Assembly: GCA_001244265.2 (NCBI GenBank) | Contig: CDLV01000004.1 | Location: 1,612,001 to 1,676,000, forward strand | Reading direction: 5' to 3' | Length of the DNA stretch: 64,000 bases | From: Microbotryum violaceum | Taxonomy: Eukaryota | Shown: in pieces, positions 5,546 to 53,874 of the stretch | How positions within the stretch are numbered: position 1 is the stretch's first letter | How the letters are laid out: each line of letters begins with the position of its first letter | Notes under the pieces: model-generated | Seen by the model: the letters and a program-made list of their open reading frames with translations, nothing else | Told to the model about the DNA's origin: nothing | Database searches by the model: none | Program-made: the position numbers and the translations under genes

Positions 5546-5559
5546 GACAAGCCAAGCTA

Positions 5560-15600: not shown

Positions 15601-17720
15601 AGGTGTCGCTCTTGCGTGCAAGGAGGATACACCAGTGCTTGCGGGTGTGGTCGTCAACAATCACAAGCATGTAACGATGGCCGCCGAAGCTAACGTGTGG
15701 CATCTGGGCAAGGTCGACATGGATCAGGCCGAGGCGCTGGGAGGCAATCGACGTGGAGCGGGCGAATGGAAGGGCATGCGCTTTGGAAGCGAGACATGCA
15801 TTGCAATGGAAGGTCCTACACTCCTCGTCCGAGTAATCCCACACCACACCAGTAACCATCCCTTTTTGAACGATTTTCTTGAGAAGGAGGACGGGGAGGT
15901 GCGCAAGGCGGTTGTGTAGGGTAAGCAAGGACACGTGGGAGGGCGAAGCGAGCAGAGCGTGGGGCCTACAAGGTGCAGGAGTGAGGTCCAGAGTGTAGAG
16001 GTCATTGGCGATGGCCCGAGCGGTGGCGACAGCGGTACCAGCGGCGTTGCGGATGGTGGCGACGTTGGAACCGAACGAGACCGTGAAACCGAGGCGGTCG
16101 AGGCGTCGAACGGACAACAAGTTGCAAGGCAACGAGGGCACATGAAGAACGTCAGCAACGGCGATGCGACCGGAAGCCGTGTCGAGCGCCACGGAGCCGG
16201 AACCGGTGGATGGTAGGGAGCCCGCAACACCAGCAACGTGCGGTCCCTTGACGGGCTGCAAGTGCGTAAAGAGGCAAACGTCGTTGGCCATATGCCGATT
16301 GGCGCCGGAGTCCAGGAGCCAGGCCCCCTTGTCGAACGGGGAGGAGGCCGAGAGAAAGCAGGCGGAGTAGATCGCAGGTGAGAGGTGCTCGTCGGCGACA
16401 GATGGCGCGGCAGCGGGAGAGGCAGCGGGCTGGGAAGGCTTGCGTTCGCCGGCGGGCTTGTTACTGTTCTCGATGGCACGACGCGCGCGGAAGGAGGCTG
16501 CCCAAGCGGTGTCGGGGCAGTCCCTGAGCCAATGCATCTTGCGACACTTTGGGTTGGGGCATGGGGTTCGAGGAGCGCGGGTGTCGCGAGCGGAGGATCG
16601 AGCAAGCGCCGCGGTGGGAGTGTCGACTGGACGAGCGCGAATGTCGCGTAGGAGGCGATCGAAAATCGCCGAGACAGACGGCAGGGTTGTCGAATCACCC
16701 TGGTCGTTGACGAAGGTCGAGCGCCACGACTCGAGCGATGGCGGTAGCCGGGAGAGGAGGTGCGAGGCGACGAGAGAGTCGACAGTGACCTTCGACGAGG
16801 TGAGCAGACGAAGCTGATTCTCGAAACCGTCACGGAACTGGAGGAACGAGTCCGTGGTGGCGGGGAGCTCCTCGGTGCTGAAGAGCGTGACCACGGCCGG
16901 AAGGAGGTCAACAGCCGAGGTGGCGCCGTAACGAGAACGGAGAGCCTGCCAGATCTTCGGCGCGCCGTCGCTATCGTCGAGGAAGGTCGACAAACCGGGG
17001 AGGACCAAGCGAGGGTCGACAGACGAGCAGAGCGAGGAAAGGGCGTAGTGGTCCCATAACGGGACGAGCGAGGGGGGCCACGAAGTGCATGGCTCACCGC
17101 TCTCCAGGTACCGGAGGACACCGGCCGGCAAACGCGAGCGGACGACAAGGAGCCAATCCTGGTAGCCCGCCGAGTCGCGGAGGAGTTCCGTTGCAGCAAA
17201 CGAGGCTGGCTGCTGCGGCGGACGAGCGACGATAGGGGCGATAGCGGCTTCAAGGGAGGTGCCGGGCTGGGGCGTAGCGCCGGGCGCGGACTTGGGAGGC
17301 ATAGCGGGGCGGCGCGAGCGTGCGAAGAAAAAAAACGAAACGGACGCGAAAGCGACCGTGCTGGTAGATCGTGTGGGCTTATAACCTATGATGTTAAGCA
17401 ACGCACAGACCTGCTCAAGCAGTGGTAAGTCTCTGATCGACGGACCAAAGGAGACCAGACCAAGAAGTTGCTTGACACACCTGCTCAAGCAGTGGTAAGT
17501 CTCTGATCGACGGACCAAAGGAGACCAGACCAAGAAGTTGCTTGAGCAGGAGAGAGAGAGGCGCGCAGGACCAGCTAGTTGGGGGCAAGTGCGCGCGTCT
17601 GGCCAGAAGACGGAAGATAGACGGCAAAGGCCGGGTCTAAAGGAGAATAAAGGTAGAGACACAGGGGCCATGATGCTAGAAGGAAATAGGAGAGAATTAA
17701 AGTACTTTGAGAATCTCACA
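12681..17720 (-). mobile_element. Near-intact 5040-bp Ty1/copia LTR retrotransposon
   Basis: 334-bp LTRs at 12681-13014 and 17387-17720 that look identical by eye; TSD CTTCG on both sides; PBS-like GGTTATAAGCCC; G-rich PPT; gag-PR-IN-RT-RH domain order. Confidence 0.97.
13032..17302 (-). CDS. Copia gag-pol polyprotein with one frameshift near 14930
   Basis: CPNPKCRKMHWLRDC knuckle; WLLDSGA; IRSDNGGEF; LYGLRQA; YVDD; YSDCNW; ADIFTKAL. Confidence 0.92.
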
Positions 17721-18249
17721 CTTCGCACGCCATGACGTCACGCCACGTGGTTTGTCTCGTTCTAGGACGTTCTTTGTCTCGACGGCCTATTTTATTATAT
17801 AGTTTTAAGGATAGATGAACGACTGCGCCTCAGTTTGAACCGGACTCATAGAATGTCGTGGAAGGCCGCGGAACGTCGTGGAGTGAAGCCCAAAGCAGAG
17901 GGTCACGTGCCAGGCTGCTTGGATGGGAAATGGAACCTCGACGAACGTGGACAAAACGGTCTGTTGCCACGTGGTCTGTCTCCCCGTTCTCTGACGTTCT
18001 TTGACGTCGACGTGGTGGACGCCCGAAACAGTCTGCTTCGGGACAGAGAGAGTCACGTGCTATTGAATGGAACCTCGGCGAAGGTAGACGAAGCGGTGTC
18101 GCCGATGCGGAATCAGCGCTAGCTAGTTCTGGGGACGCGCTAGACGAGAGCTGTCTATGATGTCATGCCACGTGGTTTGTCTCTTGTTCCTTAGTCATTT
18201 ATATAGATGAAGTATATGAATGATAAGTTTTAAGGATAGGGGTACCTAA

Positions 18250-25996: not shown

Positions 25997-29323
<3,327 letters not shown>

Positions 29324-29745: not shown

Positions 29746-32700
29746 TTATTGGGTTGCGCGACGAACCATCTGCCGAGATCAAGCGGATGACCCGGTCAGC
29801 AGAAGGGCAAGATAGTGAACCACCGAAAGCACGTCCACTGACCTCCTTAGCCCATTTCGAAACTTTTTTGGTCTCTGAACCACCAAGCTTGGTGCGGCCA
29901 GCCTTGAGCATGTCGGCAACCCAAGGTGAGCTGAGGGCCTCCCTGAGTTGACCCTCCGGAAAGGCTTCGGCGATATCCCCGATAAGCCCAATTGCTGAAC
30001 GTAACAGGGTTTCGGTACGGTCTGGATCAGAGAGGGCCAGATGGACGAAGGCGAAAATTGAATTGAGATATGGGAGGAGTATATCCGACTTGCTAACCGT
30101 CTTGAGACCGCTGACGATGCCGGTATAGGCTTCAAGCAACGCCTCGCGCAAGGTCATCACGTAGTCGATGAGATCGTAATTGCTCTGTAAGATGGTGCGC
30201 AGAGGCAAAGTCCGGTAAGTCTTCATGGCGTAGTCGTCGAAGCGGGCCGCAGCCGGCAGTACTGACCGTGTCTACTTGGACTGTTCCAGCCTGTTGCAGC
30301 ACCGACATCGTTGTTTCAAGGAATGGCTCGAATCCAGGTCCGACCGCCAAGGCAATGTCACCGAAGCAGCTGATGATGGGAGGCTTCACGCTTCGATGCA
30401 GAACCGTGCTCTGTAGATCGGTGAGCAGGAGCTCCATAAAAACTTGACAGTACGGGAGGCTGGCTTCGCCCAGTGCCCGACAGAAGTCGCCGATGAGCCC
30501 AACCGCGATCGAGCACAACTGGTACTCTTCGTGGGAGTTGAGAGCATTGACGAGAAAAGGGAGAAAGGCCTGAAGATAAGGATGGAAGTTTTCATCGAGT
30601 GCAGCCGTGATAGCGCCGATTGCAAGAAAAGCGTCCTCGAGGATTGGGGACTGCTTCCCGGCTGAGCTGACGAGCCGGAGGAGCAGAGTCATCATCCGAT
30701 CGGCAAGAGGCTGAATAGTGCGAGAGAGTCGCCGTGTGACGCTCTGTATGTATGGCGCATTATCCCTAGGTCAGTGGTCTGCGAAAAGACTTGCATGGGA
30801 CGGGTAACGAACCGTGAGAACCGTGCAGATGTTGACCTGAAGTTCGTTGTAGTTGTTCCGGTCATCCGCGCCAACCAATTGGCTCTGTCGAAGAGAAGGT
30901 CGCTTGAGCAGAGAGCGGACTTGTTCTACAGGATGGAGCTTACCTGCAGTGCCAGAAGAGTCTCGGAACGATCAAGCAAAGCAAGCACGAGCTTGGAAAT
31001 CGTAGGTAGGGTGTCTTTTGAGGCGTGCGTTACGAGTGTCGACAAGGCCTCGTAGGCTGAAGTTCGATCACTTGCCTCATTTGTGCTCCTGTGAAGCAAG
31101 CATAAGCAGAAGTTCCCATTCACGGCAAAGGGACAAGCAACTCACTTCTCGGCAAGCCGAAGCAACGCGGAAACGATGCCGTCATAGTATGGACTCATCT
31201 CCGTAGACTCAGCTTGGGCATCGCCCAGTTGTTCCGCTAAGTTCATGATGCTCCAGCAACAATTACTGACGATGCGTGGTGATTCTTCGAGACCGCGGAC
31301 CAAGGCTGTAACCAGCGGTTGCAGTTGGGCATCCAAGTCGATGGTCTTGATTAGTACATCGGTAATTCGTCCGAGCGTCCATGCAGTGGTGTCGCGGACG
31401 TGCATCGAGGGGTCCTGCATCATCTCGATCAGCATCGGAAGGGCTTGCGAAACGAGGGGCATCAGGGTTTTCTCCTCGGGTCCATCCAGAATCGATCCAA
31501 ACGCCATTACCGCGGCTTCCCGCTTGCGCCAATCCGCGTCCTTGATATTCGTCTCAACGAAGGGGATGATGGGGGGCACGATACCATCGCCAACGCATTG
31601 CGCGAGAAGTGCCAAGCAAGTCCCTGCCGCCATGGAGACATTCCACTCGTCCTCGGTCGTATCCTCTTCCTGCTTGAGAAGCAGCTGCAACAAGACGGGC
31701 AGGATTTCTGGTAGCGCAATGCGAGCAAAATGCGACGAGTCACGTTCCGACTGGTCACCATACTCGGCTGCCTCCTCGGCGTCCAGCGCGAGCTCGATCT
31801 CCTCGTCGCAGACGGTCGACCAGAATTCGACGGCTTGCAAAGCCACTTGCTCGTCAGCGTGCTTCATACCCAGTACGGTCAACTGATGGAGTTCGGCTCG
31901 GCGTAGACATTAGTGGCGACCGAGAGGCTTCAGGGGGGACAGCCTGCGGCCAAGGGTACGGGCACTTGACTCACGCCAAAGAGCGCTCGCTCCATGTAGT
32001 GCTTCATATAGTCGTAGTACAGGCTCATGATACGAACGAGACATTCGAATGCGGCAACCTGAACGTCGGACGACGGTGACTGCGTCGCCTCACAGACCAC
32101 TTGCATGATGTAGTTTCGTTCTCCCTATCGGTAACACCGCGAATCACAAAATCACGGATCAGTCACGCCGGAGGCACGAGCCACGTGTAGGTAGAGAGAA
32201 GGCTCGCAACCCACCTCGCGCTCAAAATTCTCTTTGACGAATTCAAGAGAATTGTAAAGGGCGTGGACAGCCGCTAGCTGCACCTCCGGGCTAGCAAATT
32301 GCCGGCGAACGAGGTTATGGAGTCAGAATTCTCGACGTGCATGGCCTGCGAGACTCGGGTCACACACCTTGGCTCTTCCTTTCGAACGCCTTGCACGACC
32401 GCGGTCAGAATCTCATTTGATTGACTCGCCAACAGCTCGGGTTTCTGTGGGTGGACAGTATAAGCGGTCACATTTAGTCAGTTTTCGGCGCGCGTGTCGA
32501 AGGGGGTCAGTCCCGCCAAGCATTGCATCGCCTCTGCCCAGGAGCGCGGGTGCGCATATCGTCACAGACACGTCCCGCTACACGGATGCTTCAGTGAGAC
32601 GTAAGAGATGGCGCCGAAAATGAAATGGCGCCTGGAGCGAGTGCAGGAGGTACCGGGGCCGCGATCTGCTTCCGGAGCGCGGCCAGGGGCTGCCGGACGG

Positions 32701-33221
32701 GGAAAGCTGAAGCGCACCACAGCGCGGGCGCGACTCACGATCGACTCGCAGATGTAACCGATCGCCTGCAGTGTAGCCTGCCGCAGACCTGGGTTGTCAC
32801 CGTTGGCGACGAGCTCGAGCAGCTGCGCGATCAGGGTGGGCCACATGGCCGCGGGCACCTCGATGGCGGCGATGGCGGCCACGACTTGGCCCGCGACGTT
32901 GCGAGCTCCGCGATCGGCCGCGGCGAGGGTCGACAGCACGGCATGCTTGAGCTGGGTACGTGTCGCGGGGTCGAGCGACTTCCAGCGCTGGGCATACTCG
33001 TCGGAGCGGCTCGTGTCGCGCGCCGAGAGCGCGTTCTTGATCGCGAGGCCGGCCGCATTGCGCAGGTGGGAAGGCAAGTTGACGTCCGCCAGCGAGTTGG
33101 ACAGCGAGACGAGATACTGTGTCGGACTCGAGCTGAGGGACTGCGCCAGTTGAACGGTCGCATTCTCGCGTTCCTGCGCATTCGGCGACAAGGTCGCAGC
33201 CAAGAGTGTCGAGGCGTCCAT
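29746..33221 (-). CDS. KAP95: Importin beta-1 (karyopherin beta), multi-exon
   Basis: [81 protein letters not shown]; last exon MVRRATQ then stop. Confidence 0.96.
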
Positions 33222-33225
33222 GGCG

Positions 33226-33287
33226 GAGGCGAGGCGAGGTGAGGCGAGGCGAGGTGAGGCGAGGCGAGGTGAGGCGAGGCGAGGTGA
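33226..33287. repeat. (GAGGY)n pentanucleotide repeat immediately upstream of the KAP95 ATG
   Basis: About 12 GAGGC/GAGGT units. Confidence 0.9.
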
Positions 33288-34537
33288 GCGGCGCCGTGGA
33301 CCGACTAATGAGCGCTAGCGCGGCTTAGTCGTGTTGAGTGGTCGGAGAAGCGCGAGCGCGTGCACCGTGAAAAGGGCAGGCGATGCGGGCGGGCCTTGCT
33401 ATGCGAGGCAAACTGCGCGCAAACAGGCAAACGGCTGCTGACAGTCGACAGGCGCTGCGGCGAAGCAAGTGCTAGGTAAGCAGGTACGATGAGACTAGGG
33501 AGAGAGGGCAAACCGGCGAACGAGGGCAAAGGAGCAATACGCGCCGCGATACAGCTCGATCGAGCAGAGTTGGGAAGAATGCGCCAGTGGTGGGCAGATT
33601 ATTATGAACCGCTTAATCGATGACTAGGTGCTGACTAATCCACCTCCGGTAGTAGTTCCTAATCGTGGGTGAGCTGCCGTTTCGTTTCTGGAAAGTTCGG
33701 GGCGGTACCGGTGCTGGGGGGTGCGCTTGCGCTAACTCGCACGCGCCAAATTGAGTTGGCGCAATTGAGTTAGCGCACTTGAGTTGGCGCAGTCGAGCGC
33801 CCGAGTTAGCGCACTTGAGTTAGCGCACCGCGCCAGATCGGCAGGTCCATTAAGCCAGCAAAAAAAAAAAACCTCTGGCTATATATCTAAGCACACCAAA
33901 AAGTGGCGCGCGCGGCGCCCCTCCCAGCGCCACTCTTAAGCGGCGTACCCATACAGGTTCCCCCCCCCCCCCCCCCCCTGCAACCCGGGTTGCTCGAAGG
34001 CCCGAGGCCAAGGGCACACGGAGGCTTGTGTGGGCTCCAACAGTTTCATCTCATGTACGTGTGTGCTCAAATCAGGTCATTCGTAGTGTGTAATTCGTAT
34101 TTGGAACACTCAGTGTCAATTTTTTCGGTAAACTATCAGCGAGGAGAGGTTCGATTAGGAAACATCATTACTAAAGTGATAAAATGACATTATTGAACGT
34201 GATGGAGTCTCGTGCCCTTTCACCACGCTAACAAACGCAAGCGACACTGAGTGACAACGAGCGACTTGACGCCTCCTTGACGCGCCGCTATCGACCACGT
34301 GCAGTCCTGGTCTTACCCCTTCCTGTCGCCGTTACGCTCTTCGTCATATATCTATACTTGACGCCATCCGACGATCCGATATGTCCAGCCTGTCTGCTCC
34401 CAGCAACGCGTCAGACTTTGCCGCTCCCACCCGTGAGACGCGTCCTCGTGTTTGTGATATGGGTGGTCCTTCTGCTCACCACCGTTCCTCGCTGTTTCTG
34501 CACAGCTGCTTCGGTGCAATCGACCAACAGCGCAGAC

Positions 34538-36196
34538 ATGGGGTCCGTACTGTCTCCAATTACGGTTCAGACCCAACAGAACCACCTTCCTGCGCCCAGC
34601 GGCGCGACTTCCGAATGTGGACGAAGCACACCGCTCGCCTCAAGGCCGACCTCGTCCAACTCAATTGATCAACAAATCAAACAGTTCAGGAAGAGATTCG
34701 AGCTCTCCATGATGCCGTTCGTGCGTTGCCTTCAACTTCGCGAATGTCGTCGTCGTAGAAGCAGCGCCATGTGCTCTATGGCTTGCAACGTCGCCTCGAG
34801 ACAATGAAGTATTGTCTGCATCACGGCGTTCGGGACGACGACCTCGACGCGTACATGCCTCGTGCGATCCGAAGGAATGTCACAAACGACTGGAATGCTT
34901 TCAAGACGAGCCGCTTTTTCCACTGTCTCGTCGAGAAGGACGGACTCGAAGGTGAGCGCGGCGTCTGCCTTTCTAGCTCATCCCGAGATCGTTCATTTTG
35001 GCATTGCAAGACGCTCCTTTACGCTTCTTTGACTCACAAATTGATCACTCTGTACCCCTACAAAGTCTCGAAAGATTTTTCTACGCTAAACACAATTGGA
35101 TTGCGCTACTGGGAAAAAGTCAAAGACTCGCCAGATCTTTATGAACAATGGAAGGAAGCGTGGGCAAGTGAAGCCGAAGCGCGTGAACATGAGCAGACCA
35201 CTCGTCCCTTCAAGCGATGGCGAATCAATCCTGCTGCCATCACCAAACCGAGTCACAAGTACGAAAAGACGATACACGAACTGGTCCGTGACAATTCAGC
35301 TCTTCTCGTTGGGCTCTCCTCAATTCTCATGATCCTCCCGCTGACTTAGATAGCTTGGCACTGAATCAGGTTAATCAGCATGCTGACACCTACGGATTCG
35401 ACGCGTTAGTCATCGTCGGCTCGAACAAGCTCGAGAATAAAAATGATCGTTTCATTGTTTCGACGCTTGGCGGCGCAGCTTTCATGCGGCGCCAAAGCTG
35501 GGGTTCTCAAAAGAACGATGTGCTCGTTAACTTCACGGAATGCATAAATGGCACCCGGTTCAATCAGGAGCGAGACGAGCAATTCAAGATGGAAGGTCTG
35601 TCAGACAAGCTTCAGAACGGACCTTGTGCTCGGCGATAGATTGGTGCTGATTCCAAGAACTGATGAGCAGCTCATCATGGTGATGTTGACAAGGCGTCTC
35701 ACCGAGTGCTCTGCACATGGTATCGCATTATCATTGAAGATTACTATAGTAAGCAATCACTCCACCGCTCTGCGCCCACATTTGGCAGCCCATGACTGAA
35801 GTTTTGTGGCCGTGCAGATCAAGCGCTCCGTCGTCGCCACAACAGAAACGAGTCTATTCAGCCCTACGTGCCTTGCTTACGAGCTACAACCAGGAAACTC
35901 TTGCGAAGGATCCAACCGCTCTTGTTGTCGAGCTCGGAAACGGTCTTCACGAGCGTGATTTCCGCAGTCCTACCAATGGCAAGAAGCCGACCGTTGACAA
36001 TTTGAGAAGAATTATTCCATTGATGCGACAGGGTGGGCTTACGTTTTCGCTCAAAGAGGATATCGGCCAGGTCTCTTTTGACCGCACTCCTGCCGAGAGT
36101 ACTTTGATGAGCGAGCAGTCGGAAACGGAGCCAGAAGACCAAGACACTGGATCTGATTCTTGTTCTGATTCTGATTTGGGAGCTGCAACATTTTGA
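34538..36196 (+). CDS. KDZ cargo gene 1, multi-exon, possible divergent HMG-like protein
   Basis: Spliceable ORF chain; RRNVTNDWNAF and ..IGLRYWEKVK..YEQW; acidic C-terminus. Confidence 0.5.
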
Positions 36197-36299
36197 TTCC
36201 GAATCCGACTACATTTCTGTTGTTCAGTATATTGTTGGTGCGCCTATCGCGCGTTGAGGTAGATTGCCAAACTTTTTGTAGTCGTTGAGGTGATATCAA

Positions 36300-37200
36300 C
36301 CTGTGTGTGGCAAGAGGTATTCAACAAGTTTCCACGCATCTTGACTAGCTTGACTATCCGTCCGTTGATCAATTATGCGACGCATTTTTGATCGCAAGGC
36401 AAATCGCAAAGCAAATAGATTTACCCGCGCTAAACGTTTCAGATTTTACTCCGTAGATTCAGGCAAATAATGGATGTTCAAATAAAGTACTCACTCATCC
36501 TACCGAATGTCAAACTGCAGTTAAGCTCGTCCCAGAGCTTGGGGGGTGACCAACAGCAAAGCACCCAGATTTCTTCGACTACTCCTTCGGACCCCCCGAG
36601 ACGCCGGTGAAGTGACAGCAGAACCTTGTCGAGAATGTCCTTAATAACACGCTTCGCGTAGGGTTCTTCAAACGGCGTGCCCACGGTGAGAAGGAGAGCC
36701 GAGATTATTCGTTGGCGCTGGAACAATAGACATAAAACAGAAGCAGGGAACAAGGTAGTTCACCACTTCTGACCTGCAGACGCAAGATCGCAAGGTGTCC
36801 GAGCTTGCTAGCTGACCACGGTGTTCTAGCTGAGGGCCAGGGAAATACGACGCTGCATTACGCGTAATCAATGCCTTTTCTGCTGAATTGTCAATGGAAG
36901 GGGGCGTAAAGTCGGCATCGATATAGTGGCAGCTTGGTGCTGAGGCGTCAATGACTTCGTAGTAGCAATTCTCGTTGTTGGCCGAGTCGCTTGCATACAA
37001 GCTACAAGCGCTAGCGTTCATAGGTCGCGCTCGCGATCGGTGCCGACTACGTATTGCTTCACGCCCGTCGCCTGGGACAGACAATGTGCCAGGTGGCCAC
37101 TATATCTCGTCTCGTGCAAATACTCGATGATCTTGATCTTTGTGTCCCGCAGACAGAACCGCTGGTTGTAACTTGGTATGAATCGAGTCGCTAAGGGCAT
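36300..37200 (-). CDS. KDZ cargo gene 2, possible PrimPol/AEP-like gene or pseudogene
   Basis: TGVKQYVVGT followed by NCYYEVIDASAPSCHYIDADF; the frame join and 3' end are unresolved. Confidence 0.4.
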
Positions 37201-37354
37201 CGGATCGGCTGTGACGCGACGGTGTCGGTGATGCTGTGAGAGGAGAGAGCGCGCGCTCGGTGACGCTCGGTGACGCGAGGCGCGACGTGTACCCCCGGGG
37301 GTACACAGTGGGACACTTCTCTTTCTCACCCCTAACCCCCACTCCAAGTCCAAC

Positions 37355-38756
37355 ATGGCACCACGCGCCACCGAGGGCGAGCGCGCTTGGCTCGACATCG
37401 ACTCGCATCTCATCCGTGACGAGTCCGGCCAATGGCGTGTCCGTTGTGAACTTTGCAACAAACACTACAAGCTGCCTGGAGGGTACAGGTCACTCGACGG
37501 ACCAACTGTAGCACCGGAACATGCACATGAGGCCAAACGAAACCAAAAAAAAAAAATCATTCGTATACACAAGCGCGCGTTCAATTCGTCTACGGTCGAC
37601 AGTCGGTACAGATGCAACGAGGCGGCGTTTGAGCTGATCGGTACCGACTGTGAGGTCCAAGCAGTGAGTGCTAGACAGCTTTCCCAGGAGATCAGAAACA
37701 AACTATGTGGAATTCGGCTAAACCTTTGTTGATGTACTTATCTGATCTGATTAGGGTTTTGGCCACCTAAAGAAAAGATACCGCCGGCAGTTGCAGGCCA
37801 AGCTTGACATGTTGGAGGCGCCGGGGAAAGCGGACCGTGCGAGGCACGACGAGTGGGCGGCGGAAAGGGCGCGTCGGCTGGTGATGGAACCCAAAGACAT
37901 CATGACTCAAGACCCAATCCCTGAGGGCGTCGAAAATTTTGACTATGAGGTCCGGGAGGAGATCGACTACGTCATGTGGCCTGTTTGGGATGAATGGGCA
38001 GGGTACAAAGCGAATGGACGTCTGCCTCGGAGCCTGTTGACCGTGCTCATTCATTGGAGGAACGTGTTGTTCGATGCATACGATAACCAGAAGCGAAAGA
38101 GAGGTGGAGGGAGCGCGAGAGTTTTGAAGGAGTATAGGACCCGCATCCAAGACTTCGACGATATCCTCGCGCGCATCTTCACCGTCCCCGTCGACATTGC
38201 CGCCGAACATGAGGAATCGCGCCTATTCAGTGAAATCCTTTCACCCCTGTACCAAGAGTGCCAACGCCCCCTCCCTGAGGACGATGTAAGGACCGACGAG
38301 GACCAGGATGGGAGTGACCGTCTTTTAAAATGGATCCAAAAGGCGTACCGCCCTTTTCTGGGGAAACGTGTCCCGGACGATTACCGGGATCAGTTAGAAA
38401 GCGAACATCGCACCTGGCAAGCAGCGCTCAGACCATTTGCAACGACGGTGCTCGTCCACGTTCCCGAACCTCCTAAGCCGCCCACCGATGCGGACCTCGA
38501 GCCCGAAAGGAAGAAGATCTGGGACTCCTGGATTGTTGAGTGTGCCCACATGTGGTTGGCGCTGTCGAGCAAACAGAGGGACGCGTATTGTTGGATGCGC
38601 AAGAAGGGGTCCGGCGGAGAGGGCGCCGCGTCAATCTCGGGGCACGAGAGGAGGACGCGATATCGGAACACAGTTCGGCGACCGGCCAACATTCCGACCA
38701 CGGATCGGCAGCCGGTTCGGAGGCCGAAAGCAACCTCTCCACCCTCTCCGAGCTGA
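37355..38756 (+). CDS. KDZ cargo gene 3: BED-like Zn finger N-terminus and HMG-helix-like C-terminal motif
   Basis: W..VRCELCNKHY; 321-codon open exon 37791-38756; ECAHMWLALSSKQRDAY. Confidence 0.55.
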
Positions 38757-39303
38757 CCAGCCTGAGCGAGCTGGAGCGCGGCCTGGATACTGGGACATGA
38801 GGCACCATGAGTGTCAATTCACCGGTTAGGCGATCACCGTCCCGAATTTTCCGTGAGCGTGTGTAGCTGTCTAGCTTGTATGTTGTGTTAATGGAGATCC
38901 TGCTCTGCAATCATGATTCACCCCGAGGTAAAACGCACTCCGAAGGCGGAAATTCTAGTTCAATCTTAAACCTTAGGGCAGGGCGTAGATACACTACAAC
39001 AGAGTCCTGCGCCTTCGGAAACGAGGAAGCGGCGACGACATGCTTCATCAGTTCTAGGACACTCTTAACAAGCACTGTACAACCGGCGTAGCGGTATGTA
39101 GCCCCCGGAGGTACACATGACCGGTGCCCTCTCCAGCTGTATACTCCCGGGGTTCCACGGCTCAGGCGCGGTCCGTCGCCGACTGCACTACAACAAACTT
39201 CCACGCACCCGTTCAGAGCTCAGGATGTGTCTGCAGTTACTGAATGGAACACCCTCCTGCGACGAAACCGACAAAATATTCGTTTGCTACATCCGACTTG
39301 CAC

Positions 39304-40295
39304 TTTTTTTTTTTTTTTTGACTGGGGCTCATAAATTGCAATCCTTCGGGTTGGCTGGGACCGCTACAAAAAGAGCTAAAGGAGGTTATAAAGCAACGAC
39401 AGCAAGCAGTTGGGTGAAAGTCAAACCCCTGCGCGCAAACAGCGCTGCGCAGATCAAAGCCCGCCGAGCACCTAACGCGGACTCCAACGGGCGGTGAGTA
39501 CTGCTGCCGCTTCACGTCCCAAGAGCGGGAGCAAAGATACTCGAAAACCAGGCAAGAGCGCCTAGAGAAAGAAGGGGGAGAGTATACAGAAAGTCACGAC
39601 TGGGGATACGGAGAACCAGGAATACTAAGACAGAGAGGAGGGGAACACACCCGAGGGGCCAAGGGAGGGGGTCGAAGCCGGAGGTAGAGGTCCCCAGGGA
39701 CTAACAGGCCGCAGCCAAGCCCCAGCTACTCGTCACCCCGACAGCGCCTGATGTCCTCCCTTGGCTGAATCTCGAGTGCTGGCTGTTGAGCCGTCGGGGC
39801 CGAGAGAAAAGCGATCCAGTACAACGAAACGAGCCTCGCCTTGACGCGAGGATATTGACCAGAAACGAGCGACCTTCCTTCCCGAGCCATGCCGTAGATC
39901 TTGACCAACGCGAACGAACGAACCATTCAACGGAATCCAACACACGGCTTAGGAGTAAAAGGAGAAGTGGCTGAAGCGTAGTCAACAACCGAGCAACAGG
40001 AACGAGAAGAGGAAGGGAAGGGAAAAAGGGGGGAAAGGAGAGGGAAAAACTTCACAAAGCCTCCAACGCAAAGACAATCGACCTGGCTTGCCGATCCATC
40101 CAAGAACAAAAAACCGCTACTGCGCAAAGTAGAGAGAGAGAGGGAGAGGTGCGCAGCCTTCCACTGCGCAACAAGTTCCAAGACAGTCAGCTTCTAAAAG
40201 AGGAGTCGACCTCCGAAAAAGAAGGGAGGAAAGTTCTGAAAAGCCCGCAAGGCCAATGCACTTCTCCAGCTGAATCTCCGTTCGAACCACCGAGC
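39304..40295 (-). mobile_element. About 1-kb poly(A)-tailed retroposon inside the KDZ element
   Basis: Poly(T) tract at 39304-39319; 3' 300 bp match 7974-8271; no clear ORF. Confidence 0.7.
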
Positions 40296-40365
40296 AGTAG
40301 CTCAGCGGTCAGAGCAACTCTGATTAATAGAGTGGACCTGAGTTCAATTCTCAGTTCAGCCAAAC
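40296..40365 (+). ncRNA. 5'-truncated copy of the tRNA-like sequence
   Basis: Identical to the reverse complement of 56433-56502. Confidence 0.75.
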
Positions 40366-40395
40366 TTTCTTTTGTTTTCCAATTGACATGTTATT

Positions 40396-40657
40396 GTACT
40401 CCCGGGGCTACGCAAGGCGCAAGCGGAAAGCGCCCGTGTACTCCCGGGGGTACACAAGGCGCAAGCGGGGCCCCCGGGAGTACGCAGGCGCTTTCCCGCT
40501 TGCGCCTTGTGTACCCCCGGGAGTGATCACACCCTGCGCGCCGAATGACTGTGTACCCCCGGGAGTACACAGCTTTGTCGGCGGCACAGGCCGGGTCCCC
40601 CGGGGTTACACTCTTGTCGCGCGCCGACTCTGTGTATGTGTACCCCCGGGAGTACAC
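40396..40657. repeat. Array of about 7 palindromic GTGTACCCCCGGGRGTACAC motifs with a larger inverted repeat
   Basis: Direct reading; related copies at 37287-37306 and 39097-39157. Confidence 0.85.
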
Positions 40658-41182
40658 AGCCCCTACAATGTCCTTGGCCGATGAACCAATATCCCTGCTC
40701 ACTCGACTACATAAACTATCACGTCAACGGAGTAGGTATGCGGTGACGTATTTCATTGATTTTTGCTGACATATTATCGCAAGCACTGTACAACGGAGCC
40801 CCGTTGGACGCGTCTGGACCCAGTTCGGGGTGCTGTTGGAACAGAACAACTACAGCAACACCAATCCTCACCGCCCCCGCCCCCCTCTGGCAATGTTCCC
40901 CAACCTGAACCTGCAAATGTCAGCACCGATGCGCACCAATTCTTAGTTTTCAACTTAGCAGAACCTTCAAGCTTGTCACGTACTGCAGTTCGGTGAGTGT
41001 GGCTGTAGCGACCGGCTCGTGGGATCATGGTCGTCAATGCGTCAACGCCTCATTGAGGCTGACATCCATTTACTTTTGTGCACTAGCGTCCACAATCCAC
41101 CATGTGCGATATGGGCAGCATACAAAAAGCAAAGTCCTTCAATAACAAATAATCTAAAGTCAACAAATGCGCCAAACCATCC

Positions 41183-44100
41183 CTAGCTAGCCCATGGGCT
41201 CGTCGAGAATCTCGAGGTCGTCCGAGTCTTCAACGCTTGTCGAGCCCGACTCTCCGTCGCCCTCCCGAGCTCAGCATCATCTTCTTCCTCGACCTCCTGC
41301 TCCGATAGTGAACCCAAAACTTCTTCCATTCGTCTTTCATACACGTCATCACGGTCTCGCTCGGCATGCTCCGCGGCTGGATCGGGGGTCAGGCCAAGTT
41401 CCCTTCGGAATGCGTCGAGGTCGCTGGTTGTGTGGCGCACGTCCACGGCAGAAGGACCTGATGAGCGGCGGCTCGACTCAGTGACGAGGCTCTGTATTTG
41501 AGTATTATTCAGCGTCGAAAGGCGGCGACCGAAATGACGTGGACTACCGCGCGACCGGCGCAACACCTGTTTCGCCCGTCCGGCAAAAACTCCTCCGATC
41601 AAACCGAATGCAGTGGGCCGCGATTCATGAACTGCGGGTGAACGCGTTCTAAACCAGACAACCGAGAGATCATCGCGTTCGGCGAGCCGATCCAGACGCT
41701 CTTTGAACGAAATCTGCCGGCGTTGAAGCACATGCCACACCGCAGTGCCAACCTCGCCCGCGCCATCAGTTCCGAGAAGTTTCTTAGCCGCTTCGAGCGT
41801 TTCTTCGGGAACTAATAGAAGGGGCGACGTAAGGTACAGCACCAACACAAAGAAAGGGTGTGTCCATCTCACCTCGGTCCTCTGCCCATGCCTGAGATAC
41901 CCTAACAAAGGGGGTGTCCTCATCTTCGAGCCACGCAAGTAGCTGTCGAACCTCAGCTCCGATTCGGAGAATCTCTTCTTCCGCCCTGGCTTTGAGTAAA
42001 ACCGCCTTGATCCCTTTCTGAACATCGGTATCAATCGCCCAAGGCGCAGTGTCGTGTACGAAAAAACCGTCTTGCTAGAAAGCGTCCGTTGGCGACAGAG
42101 TCACAAGCGACTTAATTGTGGTAGCGAGCGGTAAGTTGTCCAGAATCTGGGCCGATTGCTCGGTCGCAGCATTTCGGTAATCCCCGACCGCTTTATTGTA
42201 CATATCGATTGCCACCTTTACTTTCTTGCTGTGCGTCTGTGAGACGCTGACAAGCTTGCTGGCTTCCACTTGACCGATTGTCGCGCCGCTTCGTCCCCGA
42301 CCCATTGAGTCAATTCGTTCTTGACAGCATTGCAATTGGACCGTCGCTTTGTGTAATGCGCGAAGTTTGACTACGCAGTTGCACAAATGCTGGAGATCTA
42401 GGTATGTCATGGGACATCAAACATCAGGTGGCGATACTCATAAAGATAGGACGCGCGCCGCACCTAAAGCTGCAAGCTCCTTCGTGCGATCGTATTCTTG
42501 TTGGTAAGCTCTTAGCTGTTGCTGCAAGCGAGCCTTCGCTTCATCGGAAGCCATTGGATCGAATCTGAACACACAATGCCAAGACACAGTGTCAATTTTA
42601 CGCCCTCGTCCTCCAACGGGGTTTAACGCGCCGAACGTACAGCCTTTCTTCCACGTGGTGTAGCCTCTGTACAATGTTGAAAAGCTCTAATCGCTCCTTG
42701 TCCTCGTTCTCCCGACATTGACCCGCCGTTGTGGCCGCTTGAGCAGCTCGTTGTAAATCCCATTGCGCGAGAAGGTCAGACTCGGACCATATTGCCGAAA
42801 TGTCACTCAGATCAGTTTGTGCCCTTCCAAGCTGATCTTGAGCATTCGACAGTCGTCTGCGGAGCCAACGGCCTAGAATGGACGATGAATGAAGGGACCG
42901 CACGATTAAGTGACGAACACGGCGTGAAAGTGTGGATGGCAGAGCCTACCGAGGCTGTCAACACCGTTCTTGTTCATCAGGTCGATGCGACGCGAGATGT
43001 TGACGCGCCGGTGAGAAGCGCTCGCAGGACGATTGATCGGGATTAGCGATCGGAGCTGACTCCAAACGCGTTCGCATCCCTCCCCATCCGTCAACCCGAA
43101 GTGCTGAATCAGGCGCGGGTTGTACTCAAGCTGGCAGGGCCATTGATGAGCAAAAGCATGAAACACGCTCGTGGCAAACTTCAATCTCGGAAACAGATCG
43201 GGAAGGATACTTCTCTGCAGGCGATCGAAGTACAGTACAGGTCAGCGGCGCCCCAGGGCCAGAAATCTAAGAAACGACGGATCCGCCACTCTTGCTGACC
43301 GATTGCATGTAGCCGTCCAAATTACACGCAACATCATACAGCACTCCAAGTGTATCGTCGGACGGGAGTTGGTTCGAAATATGTTGCAGCAGCGATAAGC
43401 CGTAGTAGCGCCTGCCTCATCAAAAACGAGCGTCAGACCCTGTAAGCGGGTGAGAGGAACTGAGCTGACGAACTTTTCACCTGATTGATACAAGTTGACC
43501 ATCTTCAACGCGATATCGTGACGGCAGACACAGGCAACTAGGCCCGTATCGGACTTGCCCCGCGAGATTTGTGTCGCACCGCCGTTGGCCGCTTTCCATG
43601 AATCAGCACAAGCCTTCAAGACGCAAGAGGAAAGGCGTCAGCGCGTTGAAAGGATCGCAGGGGGCGGCTCGGATCAGCGGACCTTTTCTGACTTCTTGCT
43701 GTCGCCACCATCACAGATCTCCTTCATCGATTCGAGCTCATCTTCGCCGAGGAAGAGGGCTGGCGTCGACTCCTGAGGATCGTATTTGGCTGAGGTGTCG
43801 CGAGAATGTTGGAAGTTGCCTTCCAGAGCGACAAGATGCTGCACTTCGACTCTATGGTGGGCTTGGTTTAGACGCGTCGATCCGTAGCATGCTGGACACT
43901 TATCCGAGAGAGAACCCGCGACACCGAGGACGAGGTCGCCCAATTCTCGCTCGGATGTCGTGAGAGCCCGAAATTCGTCAAGGGCGCGCTGGAGTTGCTT
44001 TCGCAGCTCCTTGTCCTGCGCGAACGATGATAAATATCAGATAATGATCAATAGCAATCATGACAGGGGGTCGAGCTCACGAATTTATGCTGACTCAGGC

Positions 44101-45250
44101 CCGGCCGACTCCATCCAGTTTGGTCATAGAAATGTCGAGCCCGCGAGCTGCTCCATCGACAGGAAACGGCGCAGTGCTCCACCAGGAGTCGAAAAATTGG
44201 AGAAGTCGAAGGGTGAATGCAGAGCGAGGAGCAGCTGCGGTCGATCCGATTAATCCTATCTGAGCAAGGCGCTCGGCGTACGTAAGGCATGGGCTATCGC
44301 TGCTGGATCTCCGACAGAAAGCGATCGGCACCTCGACCACTACTGCATTGATTCAACCATTCGACCTTGTCAGCGCAACGTTCGACAGAGCGACCCAATT
44401 CGCCTGATTCACATACAGCTTATGAGGTCGTACACGTCAAGCCGTAAAGTGAGGGAACTCTTGCATGAACAAGGCGGCGGCACTTCGCTAGCGACCGAAC
44501 CCTGGCACAGCTCCTCGTTCACGTCAATCAAGGGCCGTAGATGACCTTTGACCCCAGCGCAAAACGCGATGTACTGGCGCAGAAGCGCTGGCGGTTCCAA
44601 GCGCCTAAGGCGAGCGTCGTTGAACACGAATTGCTTGTACGTTTCTTGCTTCGACTGACCACGTGTGGCTGATTCGAAACTTTCGACTTGGCGCAGGTCA
44701 GCCAGTGATAATCGCTCGGCGATTGCACTATAGTCAGGCGCGATTGGTATATGGGATGTTCGATCCGGAGAGTATGGGGCTGGATCGAAGTCGTGCTCGA
44801 AGCCACCACCGTACTCGCTGTAACGCTCTTCATCCCAATCCATCCCACTCGAGTTGGCGGCGTCACTCGCGGCTTCGTCGGAATCGGCCTGAATGGGAAG
44901 GGCCATTGGACGCTGAGGAGACGGCGAGCTAGCTTCGCCAAAATCATCGAAGGTTCCTTGCTGGATTTGGCGGGCAGTGTAAGTAACACGGTGCCGGGTT
45001 CCGGGGATGTTGGTGCGGAGTCGGGCGTCCGATCGGAGGCCTTGAGGCCTATAGGAAGGATGCTCCTCAAAGTAGTCCAGACGGACCTTGAAAGGTCTCC
45101 ATCGATGCCTGCCATCGTCGATGTGAATTGCGAAGCTTCGAGATTTAGGAAGGGTGTCTCGATAGTTGATGCTCTGGTTAGAACTGAGGCGGGTCTCACT
45201 TGGCGCTGAGCGGAAGCTAAAAGAGACAGGTCTGCGGGCATACTAGTCAC
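41183..45250 (-). pseudogene. CxC1-type KDZ transposase, multi-exon, with a premature stop
   Basis: CPACYG; LEGNF; DTGLVACVCRHD; SGEK; LYDVAC; VFHAFAHQWPCQ; GLTDGEGCERVWS; PWAIDTDVQKGI..RAEEE; in-frame TAG at 42075-42077. Confidence 0.9.
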
Positions 45251-45484
45251 TAAATGCTCAATCTCATTAGCAAGTTAATCTTGGCCTCGGGCCTCGAGCA
45301 ACCCGGGTTGCAGGGGGGGCAACCTGTATGGGTACGCCGCTTAAGAGTGGCGCTGGGAGGGGCGCCGCGCGCACCACTTTTTGGTGTGCTTAGAAATATA
45401 GCCAGAGGTGCAAAAAACCTCGTGCGCGCACGCGCGATAAGGCAGCTTTTCTGTTTTTTGGCCCGGGGGGAGCTTGGTAGACCG

Positions 45485-45761
45485 TGTGAGATTGACAGCC
45501 TCCTATGTTTCCTTCTCGCATCATGTCTCCTTTTCTCGGTCTTATTTTACCGCCATTTGGCCTGCCTTTCCACACCTTAGCTCTCTTCCTTTCTGGGCTG
45601 GGTCCGTGCACCTGACAAAGGCGGCTGGCCCAGCCGCGCGCTAACCCGAGCCAACTGGCTCCGCGCTCCTCTCTCTCCTGCTCAAGCAACTTCTTGGTCT
45701 GGTCTCCTTGGTCCGTCGATCAGAGCCTTACCACCGCTTGAGCAGTCGCTACAACTCTACA
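45485..45761 (+). mobile_element. Solo LTR related to the 12681-17720 copia
   Basis: TGTGAG...TACA; TSD GACCG on both sides; shares CTCAAGCAACTTCTTGGTCTGGTCTCC. Confidence 0.9.
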
Positions 45762-45847
45762 GACCGATGGTGTACCATTGCTCCCCCCTCCTCGCCCACC
45801 CCGGCACGGTGCACCTCTGGGTGTCCCACGAGCCGTGAAGCGAAAGC

Positions 45848-47158
45848 TTTTTTTTTTATCTAATAGATTTCATTAACAGCATATCTATATTAATGCCTAA
45901 AAATCCTCGGAAAAGACGGAGGGAATGCAGTTAAGCACACTGGCGAGGCCAGTAGTGTGGGACTCGTTGACCTTGGAACAAAATCAACCATACCCACTAA
46001 AACCCCCTTAGGCGGTTACAGCGAAACCAGTCGTCCCTTGGACTCCTGGATGGACGCGCGGAGCTCCTCAAATGCCGTTTCGGCGATCGGCTCCAGAGGA
46101 TCCGACGAAAATCGACGGCGACGAGAGAGCTTCCAGATCGCGTGGAAGAAGAGTAGACGCAGCTCGACGGGTCGGCGTTCCGAGCGAGAAACGACCGGGC
46201 ACACGAACTGAACAAAGTCGGGGTGTGGGATAGGAGTGAGCGCAGACCAGAGGCGGCGGGCAAACGGGCAACCGACCGCAAGGTGTGCCAGGGTCTCCGG
46301 AGCCTCCGACAGGCACATGACACATGCGGTAGATCGATTGTGGAGAGAACGGCTATTCGGAGAAGCGATTTGGCTACCTGGATGAAGTGAACCTAGGGAG
46401 AGGAGGTGGGCCGTGTCTTCGGCGTCCGAATGAACCCTGCGAATCTTGCGTAGCGCCTTCCACCAGGCATTCCAGCGTTGCTCGGGGAGACAGAAAACCC
46501 TCTGATGACCGAGAGGGAGGATAGGAGGGTAGAGGAAGGCTTGGTGGCGTTTGGACGCGTTCCCAAACGAAGACGGAGTCATCACCTCGCCATCGGGTCC
46601 TCGGAAAAGCGTCGGGTTCACCGAGAGTCGGATTCCGTGGCCTGCTGGGAAGTAGAGGACGTGTGTTGCCCACCGCTCCAGATTCGGGCTCTTGGAAAGT
46701 TCGGGGGGTTCAGCGTTGTCACCAAATCCCAGGCTTCGAAAAAGCGGATCCATCGTGGAGGGAGCAGGGCCTTCGTCTTCCTCACTGCGCGTTCCCACTG
46801 TGGAGGAGGGTGGCAAAAGTAGGCCCACCAGATCCAGACCCACGAGCGACGATGTGGGTTGGGGCCTGATTTGGGCAAGGTAAAGGGGGTGCGTTCGTTC
46901 GCCGCCTGAAGGCGAGTGCGGATGTCGAAGAGGTGCCGAATGAAGCAGCCGTCCGGGTCCCGAAGATGAAAGACCCACTTGGCGTGATCGACCGCGAGGC
47001 GCCGAGGTAAGTCAATCAAGCCAAAGCCGCCGTGGTCGAGAGGGGTGCAGAGGCGCAGCCGAGAGACCTTCGGGGTTTCTGAGATCCGTCCGAGGCTCGA
47101 CCGTGGATAGCGATCATGACCGCGTCCTCGATCTCCTTGACGACGCTCTTGGAAGCTT
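45848..47158 (-). mobile_element. 5'-truncated LINE, same family as 61068-64000
   Basis: Poly(T); near-identical to 61068-62380; CVMC..ETLAHLAVGC zinc knuckle. Confidence 0.93.

Positions 47159-51056: not shown

Positions 51057-53874
<2,818 letters not shown>

What the first reader, a model, noticed from the sequence alone, without database searches (positions are those of the whole stretch)
36300..37200. Possible primase-polymerase (PrimPol/AEP)-like gene carried by a cut-and-paste transposon
Seen: GVKQYVVGT upstream of CYYEVIDASAPSCHYIDADF (about 36908-36968), and later IWVLCCWSPPK. Known: eukaryotic PrimPol has a G-x-R-x-Y-L-V segment, then CYEVI..CKLYFDLEF with the metal-binding DxE, then a K-x-S-x-H motif. 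Inference: a DxD-bearing AEP-like module on a KDZ element. I am not aware of this being described; it could serve gap filling or replication. The SxH motif was not found and one frame join is unresolved, so the gene may be truncated.
Basis: inference. Interest (0 to 1): 0.8.

Follow-up and report, generated by a model that had tools for sequence, protein, structure and literature searches.

The report
Decayed primase-polymerase gene relic in transposon
A large fungal cut-and-paste (KDZ) transposon carries the broken front half of a PrimPol-like primase-polymerase gene; the ancestry is real, but this copy cannot make a working enzyme.

Summary
They are not chance. The stretch matches 4 of 1.84 billion representative proteins, E 1.9e-43 to 7.9e-23, all from Microbotryum.

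One relative, MVLG_06887 (P0004, 350 aa), keeps all three AEP catalytic motifs. Its motif C has the same D-x10-R-x5-K spacing as human PrimPol. The ESM Atlas places it among PrimPol/AEP_C962R clusters (features 0.97; structure TM 0.62). No HMM or PDB sequence search confirms this.

The window copy covers only P0004 residues 1-168 (37237 to 36595). It has a TAG stop at 37100-37102 and several frameshifts. It lacks motifs B and C, and its tail, including IWVLCCWSPPK, is no more like P0004 than shuffled sequence.

The copy lies inside an 11.5 kb element with about 140-nt terminal inverted repeats and a KDZ/CxC1 transposase. All 14 other annotated relatives with an AEP part lack motifs B and C; 11 carry the same tail.

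Verdict: AEP ancestry and KDZ carriage are supported; a functional primase-polymerase is not. This is a passively propagated pseudogene relic. The lead worth following is the intact paralogue.

The parts
33871..45409 (.). Whole KDZ-type DNA transposon, about 11.5 kb, which contains the finding
   Evidence: Bounded by inverted repeats. KDZ and CxC1 domains lie inside. Size and TIR length resemble Cryptococcus KDZ1-3, which are 9.2-11 kb with 139-241 bp TIRs (PMC12810828 passages).
33871..34012 (.). Left terminal inverted repeat
   Evidence: arms 33871-33967 / 45313-45409 are 97 nt and 97% complementary, with a further 31-nt arm; 142 aligned columns at 89%.
45280..45409 (.). Right terminal inverted repeat
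36478..37237 (-). Relic of a PrimPol-like AEP gene: N-terminal part plus a non-homologous tail
   Evidence: tblastn of P0004 aligns residues 1-125 to 37237-36824 (56% identity, 77 of 138 columns) and residues 128-168 to 36717-36595 (63%, 26 of 41), joint E 9e-47. Nothing aligns beyond residue 168.
37100..37102 (-). In-frame TAG stop in the ancestral AEP frame
   Evidence: P0004 and P0005 have Y at this position.
36985..37065 (-). Frame-shifted stretch: GVKQYVVGT (37039-37065) is read in another frame than the flanking AEP sequence, with at least three frame changes
   Evidence: Three-frame translation, DNA read-out and comparison with the uninterrupted P0004 sequence.
36908..36967 (-). Motif A strand: CYYEVIDASAPSCHYIDADF, with D-A-D at 36911-36919
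   Evidence: Among 15 homologues the triplet is D-A-D in 10, D-A-E in 4 and D-V-E in 1.
36718..36763 (-). 46-nt GT..AG intron between the motif A exon and the RQRII exon
   Evidence: The junction V|RQRII is the one used in annotated relatives. Contigs of X1 and X6 cover it unspliced (records 6 and 22).
36595..36717 (-). Last stretch homologous to the intact relative (RQRII...RRLG, P0004 residues 128-168)
36478..36594 (-). Tail with no detectable homology to the AEP. It includes IWVLCCWSPPK (36538-36570) and the stop at 36478-36480
   Evidence: Local alignment to P0004 residues 168-215 scores 14, against a shuffle mean of 15.7; 1503 of 2000 shuffles reach it. The same tail is in 11 of 15 relatives.
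41183..45242 (-). KDZ transposase gene (CxC1 at 44095-44352, KDZ core at 42906-43637), multi-exon
   Evidence: Eight CT..AC (= GT..AG on the minus strand) joints between 41812 and 44416 in runs X6 and X17. After removing these eight introns the window copy still shows a frame change and two stops, so its intactness is unresolved.
37355..38756 (+). Gene B, divergent from the relic: 103 + 333 codons, open once a 91-nt intron (37664-37754) is removed; no known family
   Evidence: ORFs. Joint 37662->37754 in X6 and X17. No Pfam family at E <= 0.01: exon 1 has one weak match, PF07975 C1_4, E 0.031, 15 bits against a cutoff of 28.9; exon 2 has none at E <= 1. No Atlas hit.
34232..36196 (+). Gene A: several + strand ORF pieces with no known family, convergent with the relic
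   Evidence: Annotated relatives P0002, P0006, P0009, P0013 and P0018 run from the relic into the antisense of this gene's 3' end, so the adjacency recurs in other copies.
37280..37306 (.). Palindromic GTACCCCCGGGGGTAC-type motif between the relic and gene B. It recurs several times at 40395-40664
   Evidence: I2, I4-I7, D3, D4.

Best explanation
The stretch 37237-36478 (minus strand) is a pseudogene relic of a highly divergent PrimPol-like archaeo-eukaryotic primase (AEP) gene. It is fixed as passenger DNA inside a multi-copy KDZ cut-and-paste transposon of Microbotryum-type anther-smut fungi. Shown: only the N-terminal 168 residues of the intact relative are represented, including the template-contacting H-R and the motif A strand. 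Shown: the ancestral frame is broken by a TAG stop and at least three frame changes. Shown: homology ends after RRLG, and motifs B and C are absent. Shown: the same truncation recurs in many dispersed copies. Inferred: the relic makes no primase or polymerase and has no role in transposition. It is copied passively whenever the element, whose transposase is transcribed and spliced in a related organism, moves. Inferred: the truncation happened once, before the two subfamilies (D-A-D and D-A-E) and the host species diverged. Whether the ancestor was a host gene fragment captured by the element or a complete cargo gene of an ancestral element is open.
For: Homology to Microbotryum proteins at E 1.9e-43 to 7.9e-23. 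The intact relative P0004 carries D94/E96, S188/H190 and D258/R269/K275. Its D-x10-R-x5-K spacing equals that of human PrimPol D280/R291/K297, taken from PMC8373064 passages. Atlas: feature score 0.97 with 208 of 256 features shared with a PrimPol-family cluster; structure TM 0.62, 0.60 and 0.59 to PrimPol / AEP_C962R / Herpes_UL52 clusters. Foldseek on a poor AF2 model still ranks six human PrimPol chains as the top six of 350,542 chains, though only at E 0.083-0.19. tblastn of P0004 against all 64 kb finds only residues 1-168, with the stop and frame breaks. The tail is not above chance. The relic lies within the TIRs together with the KDZ and CxC1 domains. There are 18 annotated proteins in 6 clusters on many chromosomes or contigs of M. 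saponariae (12), M. silenes-dioicae (5) and M. lychnidis-dioicae (1). Fifteen of them hold the AEP part; P0004 aside, all 14 lack motifs B and C and 11 carry the same tail.
Against: No profile or sequence search links either the window pieces or P0004 to an AEP family: Pfam at E <= 10, PHROGs, NCBIfam, and PDB by phmmer and hmmsearch all gave nothing relevant. Both AF2 models were poor (pLDDT 33 and 37), so the fold evidence is weak or comes from the Atlas's own model. The motif A core is strikingly well kept among copies and against P0004, which could reflect constraint rather than youth. Gene callers predict open 146-268 aa products from these loci. I had no DNA of other copies, so I could make no dN/dS test.
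Confidence: 0.8

Rival explanations
1. The truncated ORF (about 150-200 aa, as annotated in relatives) encodes a non-catalytic protein kept by the transposon. It could be a DNA- or template-binding module, or a regulator or dominant-negative derived from the AEP N-terminus.
For: The motif A core and the RQRII...RRLG exon are nearly identical among copies (74-86 of 75-86 aligned residues in the closest relatives). A canonical intron is retained. Eleven of 15 relatives share the same C-terminal tail and stop. Subfamily 2 (P0003, P0005, P0014) keeps the ancestral N-terminal frame open with D-A-E.
Against: The window copy has a stop and frameshifts in the ancestral frame. Annotated models use different frames and splice choices for the N-terminus, as expected of ab initio calls on decayed DNA. 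Copies differ by indels in the tail (P0003/P0005 against P0001). High similarity is expected from recent transposition alone.
Confidence: 0.08
2. One reading: a working DxD primase-polymerase carried by the KDZ element for gap filling or replication.
For: Motif A is present and conserved. The family is AEP-derived. A bacterial PrimPol-type AEP, IEE, is reported to promote IS excision with end-joining polymerase activity (PMC9943667; search listing and abstract start only).
Against: Motifs B and C are absent from the whole window. The ancestral frame has an in-frame stop and frameshifts. No close relative has motif B or C.
Confidence: 0.02
3. The relic is not cargo of the KDZ element as such. 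It belongs to another repeat unit (gene A + relic, or relic + gene B) that is nested in, or recombined with, this KDZ copy.
For: The element is a mosaic. 39305-39602 recurs at 7974-8271 (96.6%) and 40296-40365 at 56433-56502 (100%). Palindromic motifs flank the gene B segment. Summed contig depths differ along the element: 182-519 over the relic against 456-806 over the transposase in X1 (the tool warns that this is not a copy number).
Against: No inverted or direct repeats bracket the relic separately. The relic-to-gene-A adjacency recurs in at least five annotated relatives. A contig of run X6 spans the relic-to-gene-B adjacency, 36850-37662 (record 23). This is as expected if the whole left arm moves as one unit.
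Confidence: 0.1

Closest known systems
Eukaryotic PrimPol (CCDC111) and the NCLDV/herpesvirus-type AEPs (Pfam PF03121 Herpes_UL52, PF23162 AEP_C962R)
   Same: The intact relative P0004 has motif A (D-x-E), motif B (S-x-H) and motif C (D, then R at +11 and K at +17). The motif C spacing equals that of human PrimPol D280/R291/K297. An H-R pair lies upstream of motif A, as human H46/R47 does. Atlas feature and structure neighbours are PrimPol/AEP_C962R clusters. The top Foldseek ranks are human PrimPol and HSV helicase-primase. The window keeps the H-R pair and motif A.
   Different: There is no Pfam, PDB or other profile hit. The invariant W and conserved Y of the WxxY motif are not kept: P0004 has Y-Q-R-L at the aligned place, which is my own alignment by eye. 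The motif A to B spacing is longer (94 against 53 residues) and the B to C spacing shorter (68 against 111). No UL52-type zinc finger is seen in the partial P0004 or in the window. The window copy lacks motifs B and C and is broken.
KDZ (Kyakuja-Dileera-Zisupton) DNA transposons, e.g. Cryptococcus KDZ1-3 and the TET/JBP-carrying Dileera/Kyakuja families
   Same: It has KDZ and CxC1 transposase domains, a length of about 11.5 kb and TIRs of about 140 nt, against 9.2-11 kb and 139-241 bp in Cryptococcus. It has a multi-exon transposase and carries passenger genes, as the TET/JBP families do (PMC12730594 passages).
   Different: The passenger here is an AEP-derived fragment, not a TET/JBP dioxygenase. 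The words primase, PrimPol and AEP do not occur in the main text of that paper. The target-site duplication is unclear: the candidate is GCAAAAAA, which is low-complexity and offset by an A-run.
Gene-fragment capture by DNA transposons (Pack-MULE / CACTA-type transduplication; named from my own knowledge, not from a call)
   Same: A truncated, frame-broken piece of a cellular-type gene with an intron is carried between TIRs and amplified with the element.
   Different: The donor gene is not identified as a host gene. The only intact relative is itself a partial, single, unannotated model, and it may also be element-borne.
E. coli IS-excision enhancer IEE, a PrimPol-type AEP acting on transposon excision
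   Same: It is a precedent for an AEP whose polymerase and end-joining activity is tied to transposon excision (PMC9943667 and bioRxiv 10.1101/2023.06.07.543989; listing and abstract starts only). It is the functional model for what an intact element-borne AEP could do.
   Different: IEE is bacterial, is not encoded inside the IS it acts on, and is catalytically intact. There is no sequence link to the window.

Membership tests
AEP superfamily, PrimPol-like clade (window copy) | Motif A: two acidic metal ligands (D-x-D/E) on a beta-strand | tested here: met
   D-A-D at 36911-36919. The first D and an acidic third residue occur in 15 of 15 homologues. The strand is predicted at the equivalent place in P0004, but in low-confidence models.
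AEP superfamily, PrimPol-like clade (window copy) | Motif B: S-x-H nucleotide-binding strand | tested here: not met
   Homology to P0004 ends at residue 168, before S188/H190. The tail with IWVLCCWSPPK scores no better than shuffles, 1503 of 2000, and has W and E where S and H would fall.
AEP superfamily, PrimPol-like clade (window copy) | Motif C: third acidic ligand plus downstream R and K | tested here: not met
   tblastn of P0004 against the whole 64 kb at E <= 10 found no credible match to residues 169-350.
AEP superfamily, PrimPol-like clade (window copy) | Uninterrupted reading frame | tested here: not met
   TAG at 37100-37102 and at least three frame changes between 37065 and 36985.
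AEP superfamily, PrimPol-like clade (intact relative P0004) | All three catalytic motifs in order, with PrimPol-like spacing in motif C | tested here: met
   D94/E96, S188/H190 and D258/R269/K275, against human D114/E116, S167/H169 and D280/R291/K297 (PMC8373064 passages).
AEP superfamily, PrimPol-like clade (intact relative P0004) | Significant profile or solved-structure sequence match (PF03121, PF23162, PDB PrimPol) | tested here: not met
   0 Pfam families at E <= 10. 0 PDB sequences by phmmer or by a 4-sequence profile at E <= 10.
AEP superfamily, PrimPol-like clade (intact relative P0004) | AEP fold | tested here: inconclusive
   The structure search on the Atlas's own model (pTM 0.66, pLDDT 0.59) gives TM 0.62, 0.60 and 0.59 to PrimPol/AEP clusters, and the feature score is 0.97. 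My AF2 models reached only pLDDT 33 and 37. Foldseek on the better one gives 0 hits at E <= 0.001, yet its top six are human PrimPol chains (E 0.083-0.19, TM 0.20-0.22).
AEP superfamily, PrimPol-like clade (intact relative P0004) | C-terminal UL52-type zinc finger of eukaryotic PrimPol | tested here: inconclusive
   None is visible in the 350-aa partial model. Searches for longer forms found none: 0 of 7211 candidates.
KDZ DNA transposon | KDZ transposase core and CxC zinc cluster | tested here: met
   PF18758 at E 1.7e-22 and 1.2e-10; PF18802 at E 1.1e-06.
KDZ DNA transposon | Terminal inverted repeats enclosing the genes | tested here: met
   33871-34012 against 45280-45409.
KDZ DNA transposon | Target-site duplication (7-8 bp in described KDZ families) | tested here: inconclusive
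   GCAAAAAA occurs at 33858-33865 and 45410-45417. It is low-complexity, and five extra A lie between it and the left TIR (TSD lengths).
KDZ DNA transposon | Multiple dispersed copies | tested here: met
   Relic-bearing proteins are annotated on many chromosomes or contigs of two species. The stretch or a part of it is held by 20 of 24 listed runs, from 9 studies.

The most novel reading that the evidence does not exclude
Microbotryum KDZ transposons descend from an element that encoded a complete, very divergent PrimPol-like primase-polymerase, of which MVLG_06887 may be a surviving copy. That would be a eukaryotic DDE cut-and-paste transposon with its own AEP, perhaps used to repair or fill the donor or target gaps left by transposition, much as IEE assists IS excision in E. 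coli. The window copy would be a decayed descendant.
Probability: 0.2. Interest if true: 0.7.

Novelty: new member of a known kind. Interest (0 to 1): 0.33.

Why it matters
The relic itself is ordinary: a broken gene fragment carried by a transposon. Two things around it may be worth following. First, Microbotryum holds a PrimPol-like AEP (MVLG_06887) so divergent that Pfam, NCBIfam and PDB sequence searches all miss it, so fungal PrimPol-like genes may be under-counted. Second, every close relative of that gene found here is transposon-borne. This raises the testable question of whether a KDZ element once carried a working primase-polymerase. I found no paper that mentions an AEP or primase on KDZ elements or in Microbotryum transposons. 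Iyer et al. 2014 was not held.

Tried and rejected
- Pfam on nine ORF pieces around the finding: nothing relevant at E <= 1.
- PDB phmmer with the window piece: no PrimPol hit.
- Own-genome searches: no genome is held for this window.
- Earlier findings of this scan: nothing by place, sequence or words.
- Proteins longer than 613 aa related to P0004: 0 of 7211 candidates.
- Relatives of the P0004 C-terminal half (residues 170-350): only P0004 itself, among 496 candidates.
- Metagenome and viral contig scans with alignment A2: 95 and 26 pattern matches, none confirmed.
- PHROGs and NCBIfam on P0004 and P0014: nothing relevant.
- Atlas on gene B: no usable hit.
- Expression: no RNA holder is listed for the stretch.
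- In run X17, which does show spliced transposase forms, the bin 36608-37058 has no cover.
- No joint inside the relic is among the 15 of 48 joints shown. Contigs of X1 and X6 cover the 46-nt intron unspliced. None of these four results says whether the relic is transcribed.
- Splicing the window's transposase gene in silico with the eight read-supported introns did not give one open frame: a frame change and two stops remain. More introns may exist among the joints not shown, so its intactness is unresolved.
- TET/JBP as the identity of the finding was considered, because KDZ elements often carry it. I rejected it because there is no PF12851 hit and the relatives carry AEP motifs.

Full report
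**Observation**

CYYEVIDASAPSCHYIDADF lies at 36908-36967, GVKQYVVGT at 37039-37065 and IWVLCCWSPPK at 36538-36570. They sit in three different reading contexts. GVKQYVVGT is in another frame than the motif A stretch, and the last peptide lies beyond a short intron.

**Is it more than chance?**

The 143-aa frame 36668-37099(-) was searched with phmmer against 1,835,955,588 representative proteins. It gave 4 hits at E <= 0.001: 1.9e-43, 1.4e-29, 3.0e-25 and 7.9e-23.

Cluster look-up shows 18 proteins in 6 clusters, all named from Microbotryum: saponariae 12, silenes-dioicae 5 and lychnidis-dioicae 1. They are annotated on many different chromosomes or contigs. Three of the 18 (56-58 aa) hold only a neighbouring antisense stretch. 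The other 15 hold the AEP-like part.

**What the family is**

None of the window pieces, and none of P0001-P0004, hits any Pfam family. PDB sequence searches also find nothing.

One relative is different from the rest. P0004 is MVLG_06887, a partial 350-aa model that is 61% identical to the window over its best stretch. It reads on through three motifs in order:
- Y-I-D-V-E-F (D94, E96).
- K-L-S-F-H (S188, H190).
- F-D-L-V-P-Y ... L-Y-R-L-G-G-N-S-K (D258, R269, K275).

Passages of PMC8373064 give the human PrimPol residues: metal ligands D114, E116 and D280; motif B S167 and H169; and R291 and K297 contacting the incoming nucleotide. The D-to-R-to-K spacing (11, then 6) is identical in P0004.

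The ESM Atlas holds P0004. Its nearest clusters by language-model features are PrimPol-family and AEP_C962R clusters (0.97, 208 of 256 features; 10 of the 10 best family-bearing hits agree). By its own predicted model (pTM 0.66) the nearest are PrimPol / Herpes_UL52 / AEP_C962R clusters, at TM 0.62, 0.60 and 0.59.

My two AlphaFold runs failed, with pLDDT 33.0 and 37.0. Foldseek on the better one gives no hit at E <= 0.001. Even so, its six top ranks out of 350,542 chains are all human PrimPol (E 0.083-0.19, TM 0.20-0.22), with HSV helicase-primase entries below them.

I take P0004 to be a very divergent PrimPol-like AEP, with about 90% confidence. This rests on motifs and model-based similarity, not on a significant E-value.

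**What the window copy is**

tblastn of P0004 against the whole window aligns residues 1-125 to 37237-36824 and residues 128-168 to 36717-36595 (joint E 9e-47). Nothing credible aligns beyond residue 168. Four defects or features stand out:
- In the ancestral frame a TAG sits at 37100-37102, where P0004 and P0005 have tyrosine.
- Between 37065 and 36985 the reading passes through at least three frame changes caused by small insertions and deletions.
- The second join is a canonical 46-nt GT..AG intron at 36718-36763, with the same V|RQRII junction as in annotated relatives.
- After RRLG the sequence continues for 38 codons to a stop at 36478-36480.

This tail, which holds IWVLCCWSPPK, aligns to the motif B region of P0004 with a score of 14. 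The shuffle mean is 15.7, and 1503 of 2000 shuffles reach the observed score. It therefore cannot be called a decayed K-x-S-x-H.

Motifs B and C are thus absent. Motif A survives as D-A-D. Among the 15 homologues the triplet is D-A-D in 10, D-A-E in 4 and D-V-E in 1.

**Context**

The relic lies inside an 11.5 kb unit bounded by inverted repeats at 33871-34012 and 45280-45409. On the minus strand at 41183-45242 the unit carries a KDZ transposase: PF18758 at E 1.7e-22 and 1.2e-10, and CxC1 at E 1.1e-06.

Size and TIR length match the mobile Cryptococcus KDZ1-3 elements (PMC12810828 passages). A possible 8-bp duplication, GCAAAAAA, flanks the unit, but it is low-complexity.

Contigs of two runs of a related organism (X6, X17) carry eight GT..AG-type joints in the transposase gene and one in the divergent + strand gene B, so those genes are spliced there. 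With its 91-nt intron removed, gene B (37355-38756) is open for 436 codons. It has no known family.

The interior is a mosaic that includes pieces of other repeats.

Five annotated relatives (P0002, P0006, P0009, P0013, P0018) run from the relic into the antisense of gene A. A contig of X6 spans the relic and the first exon of gene B. The neighbourhood of the relic is therefore the same in other copies.

**Explanation**

The best reading is a truncated AEP pseudogene that travels passively with a KDZ transposon family. P0004 aside, all 14 relatives lack motifs B and C, and 11 end in the same tail as the window. The truncation therefore predates the split into the D-A-D and D-A-E subfamilies. 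The window copy has decayed further, with a stop and frameshifts. It cannot prime or extend DNA.

Rivals:
- A retained non-catalytic product (0.08).
- A working enzyme (0.02).
- Membership of a nested unit rather than of the KDZ element itself (0.10).

**Comparison and novelty**

Membership of the AEP superfamily is met for motif A only in the window, and for all three motifs in P0004. Profile-level membership was tested and not met for either.

KDZ elements are known to carry TET/JBP genes. The main text of PMC12730594 does not mention primase, PrimPol or AEP. My literature searches found no AEP on KDZ elements or in Microbotryum transposons. Supplements were closed, and Iyer et al. 2014 was not held, so what I know of that paper is recalled.

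The closest functional precedent for an AEP tied to transposon excision is bacterial IEE, seen here only as a listing and abstract starts.

**Verdict**

The object in this window is a pseudogene relic of modest interest. The intact paralogue, and the question of whether it is element-borne, is the lead worth following.

Noticed in passing
P0004 (MVLG_06887, not in the window): A 350-aa partial Microbotryum protein with all three AEP catalytic motifs is invisible to Pfam, NCBIfam, PHROGs and PDB sequence searches. Its C-terminal half has no other relative among the candidates searched.
   Followed up: partly
window 37280-37306 and 40395-40664: A palindromic GTACCCCCGGGGGTAC-type motif occurs once between the relic and gene B, and at least six times in a 270-nt cluster upstream of the transposase region. 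These could be binding sites or the ends of a nested unit.
   Followed up: no
window 39182-40365: This segment is made of other repeats. 39305-39602 recurs at 7974-8271 (96.6%) and 40296-40365 at 56433-56502 (100%). Summed contig depth here is about 5,500-5,900 in X1, against 37 on the unique flank, and a joint 40297->39182 goes back 1116 nt.
   Followed up: partly
window 33821-33863 joined to 45438-45848: Contigs of a related organism join across the whole element: X17 33863->45438 with 23 other letters, and X6 33821->45848 with TT (table 5c). These may be empty-site or rearranged alleles. The joints are not precise at the TIR ends.
   Followed up: no
window 41812-44416 (minus strand): Eight GT..AG introns of 61-85 nt in the KDZ transposase gene are supported by joints in runs X6 and X17. 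The window copy still has a frame change and two stops after their removal.
   Followed up: partly
window 42847-42891: A 43-nt skip (GA..AT ends, not intron-like) is seen in contigs of X1, X6 and X16, including runs listed as DNA. It looks like an indel polymorphism among transposase copies.
   Followed up: no
window 13032-17737 (-), 52001-53494 (-), 56812-57921 (+), 62239-63999 (-): Retrotransposon genes are present: a copia-type pol (RVT_2, rve, gag_pre-integrase), an integrase with H2C2 finger, an RVT_2 fragment and an RVT_1. The window is transposon-rich.
   Followed up: no
window 26784-28205 (+): An ORF with a P21-Rho-binding domain (E 4.2e-25) and a weak PH domain match. It is probably the N-terminal part of a PAK-type kinase host gene.
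   Followed up: no
window 33211-33300: Five tandem copies of a 15-nt unit (GAGGCGAGGCGAGGT) lie just left of the element, within overlapping long ORFs at 32562-33324.
   Followed up: no
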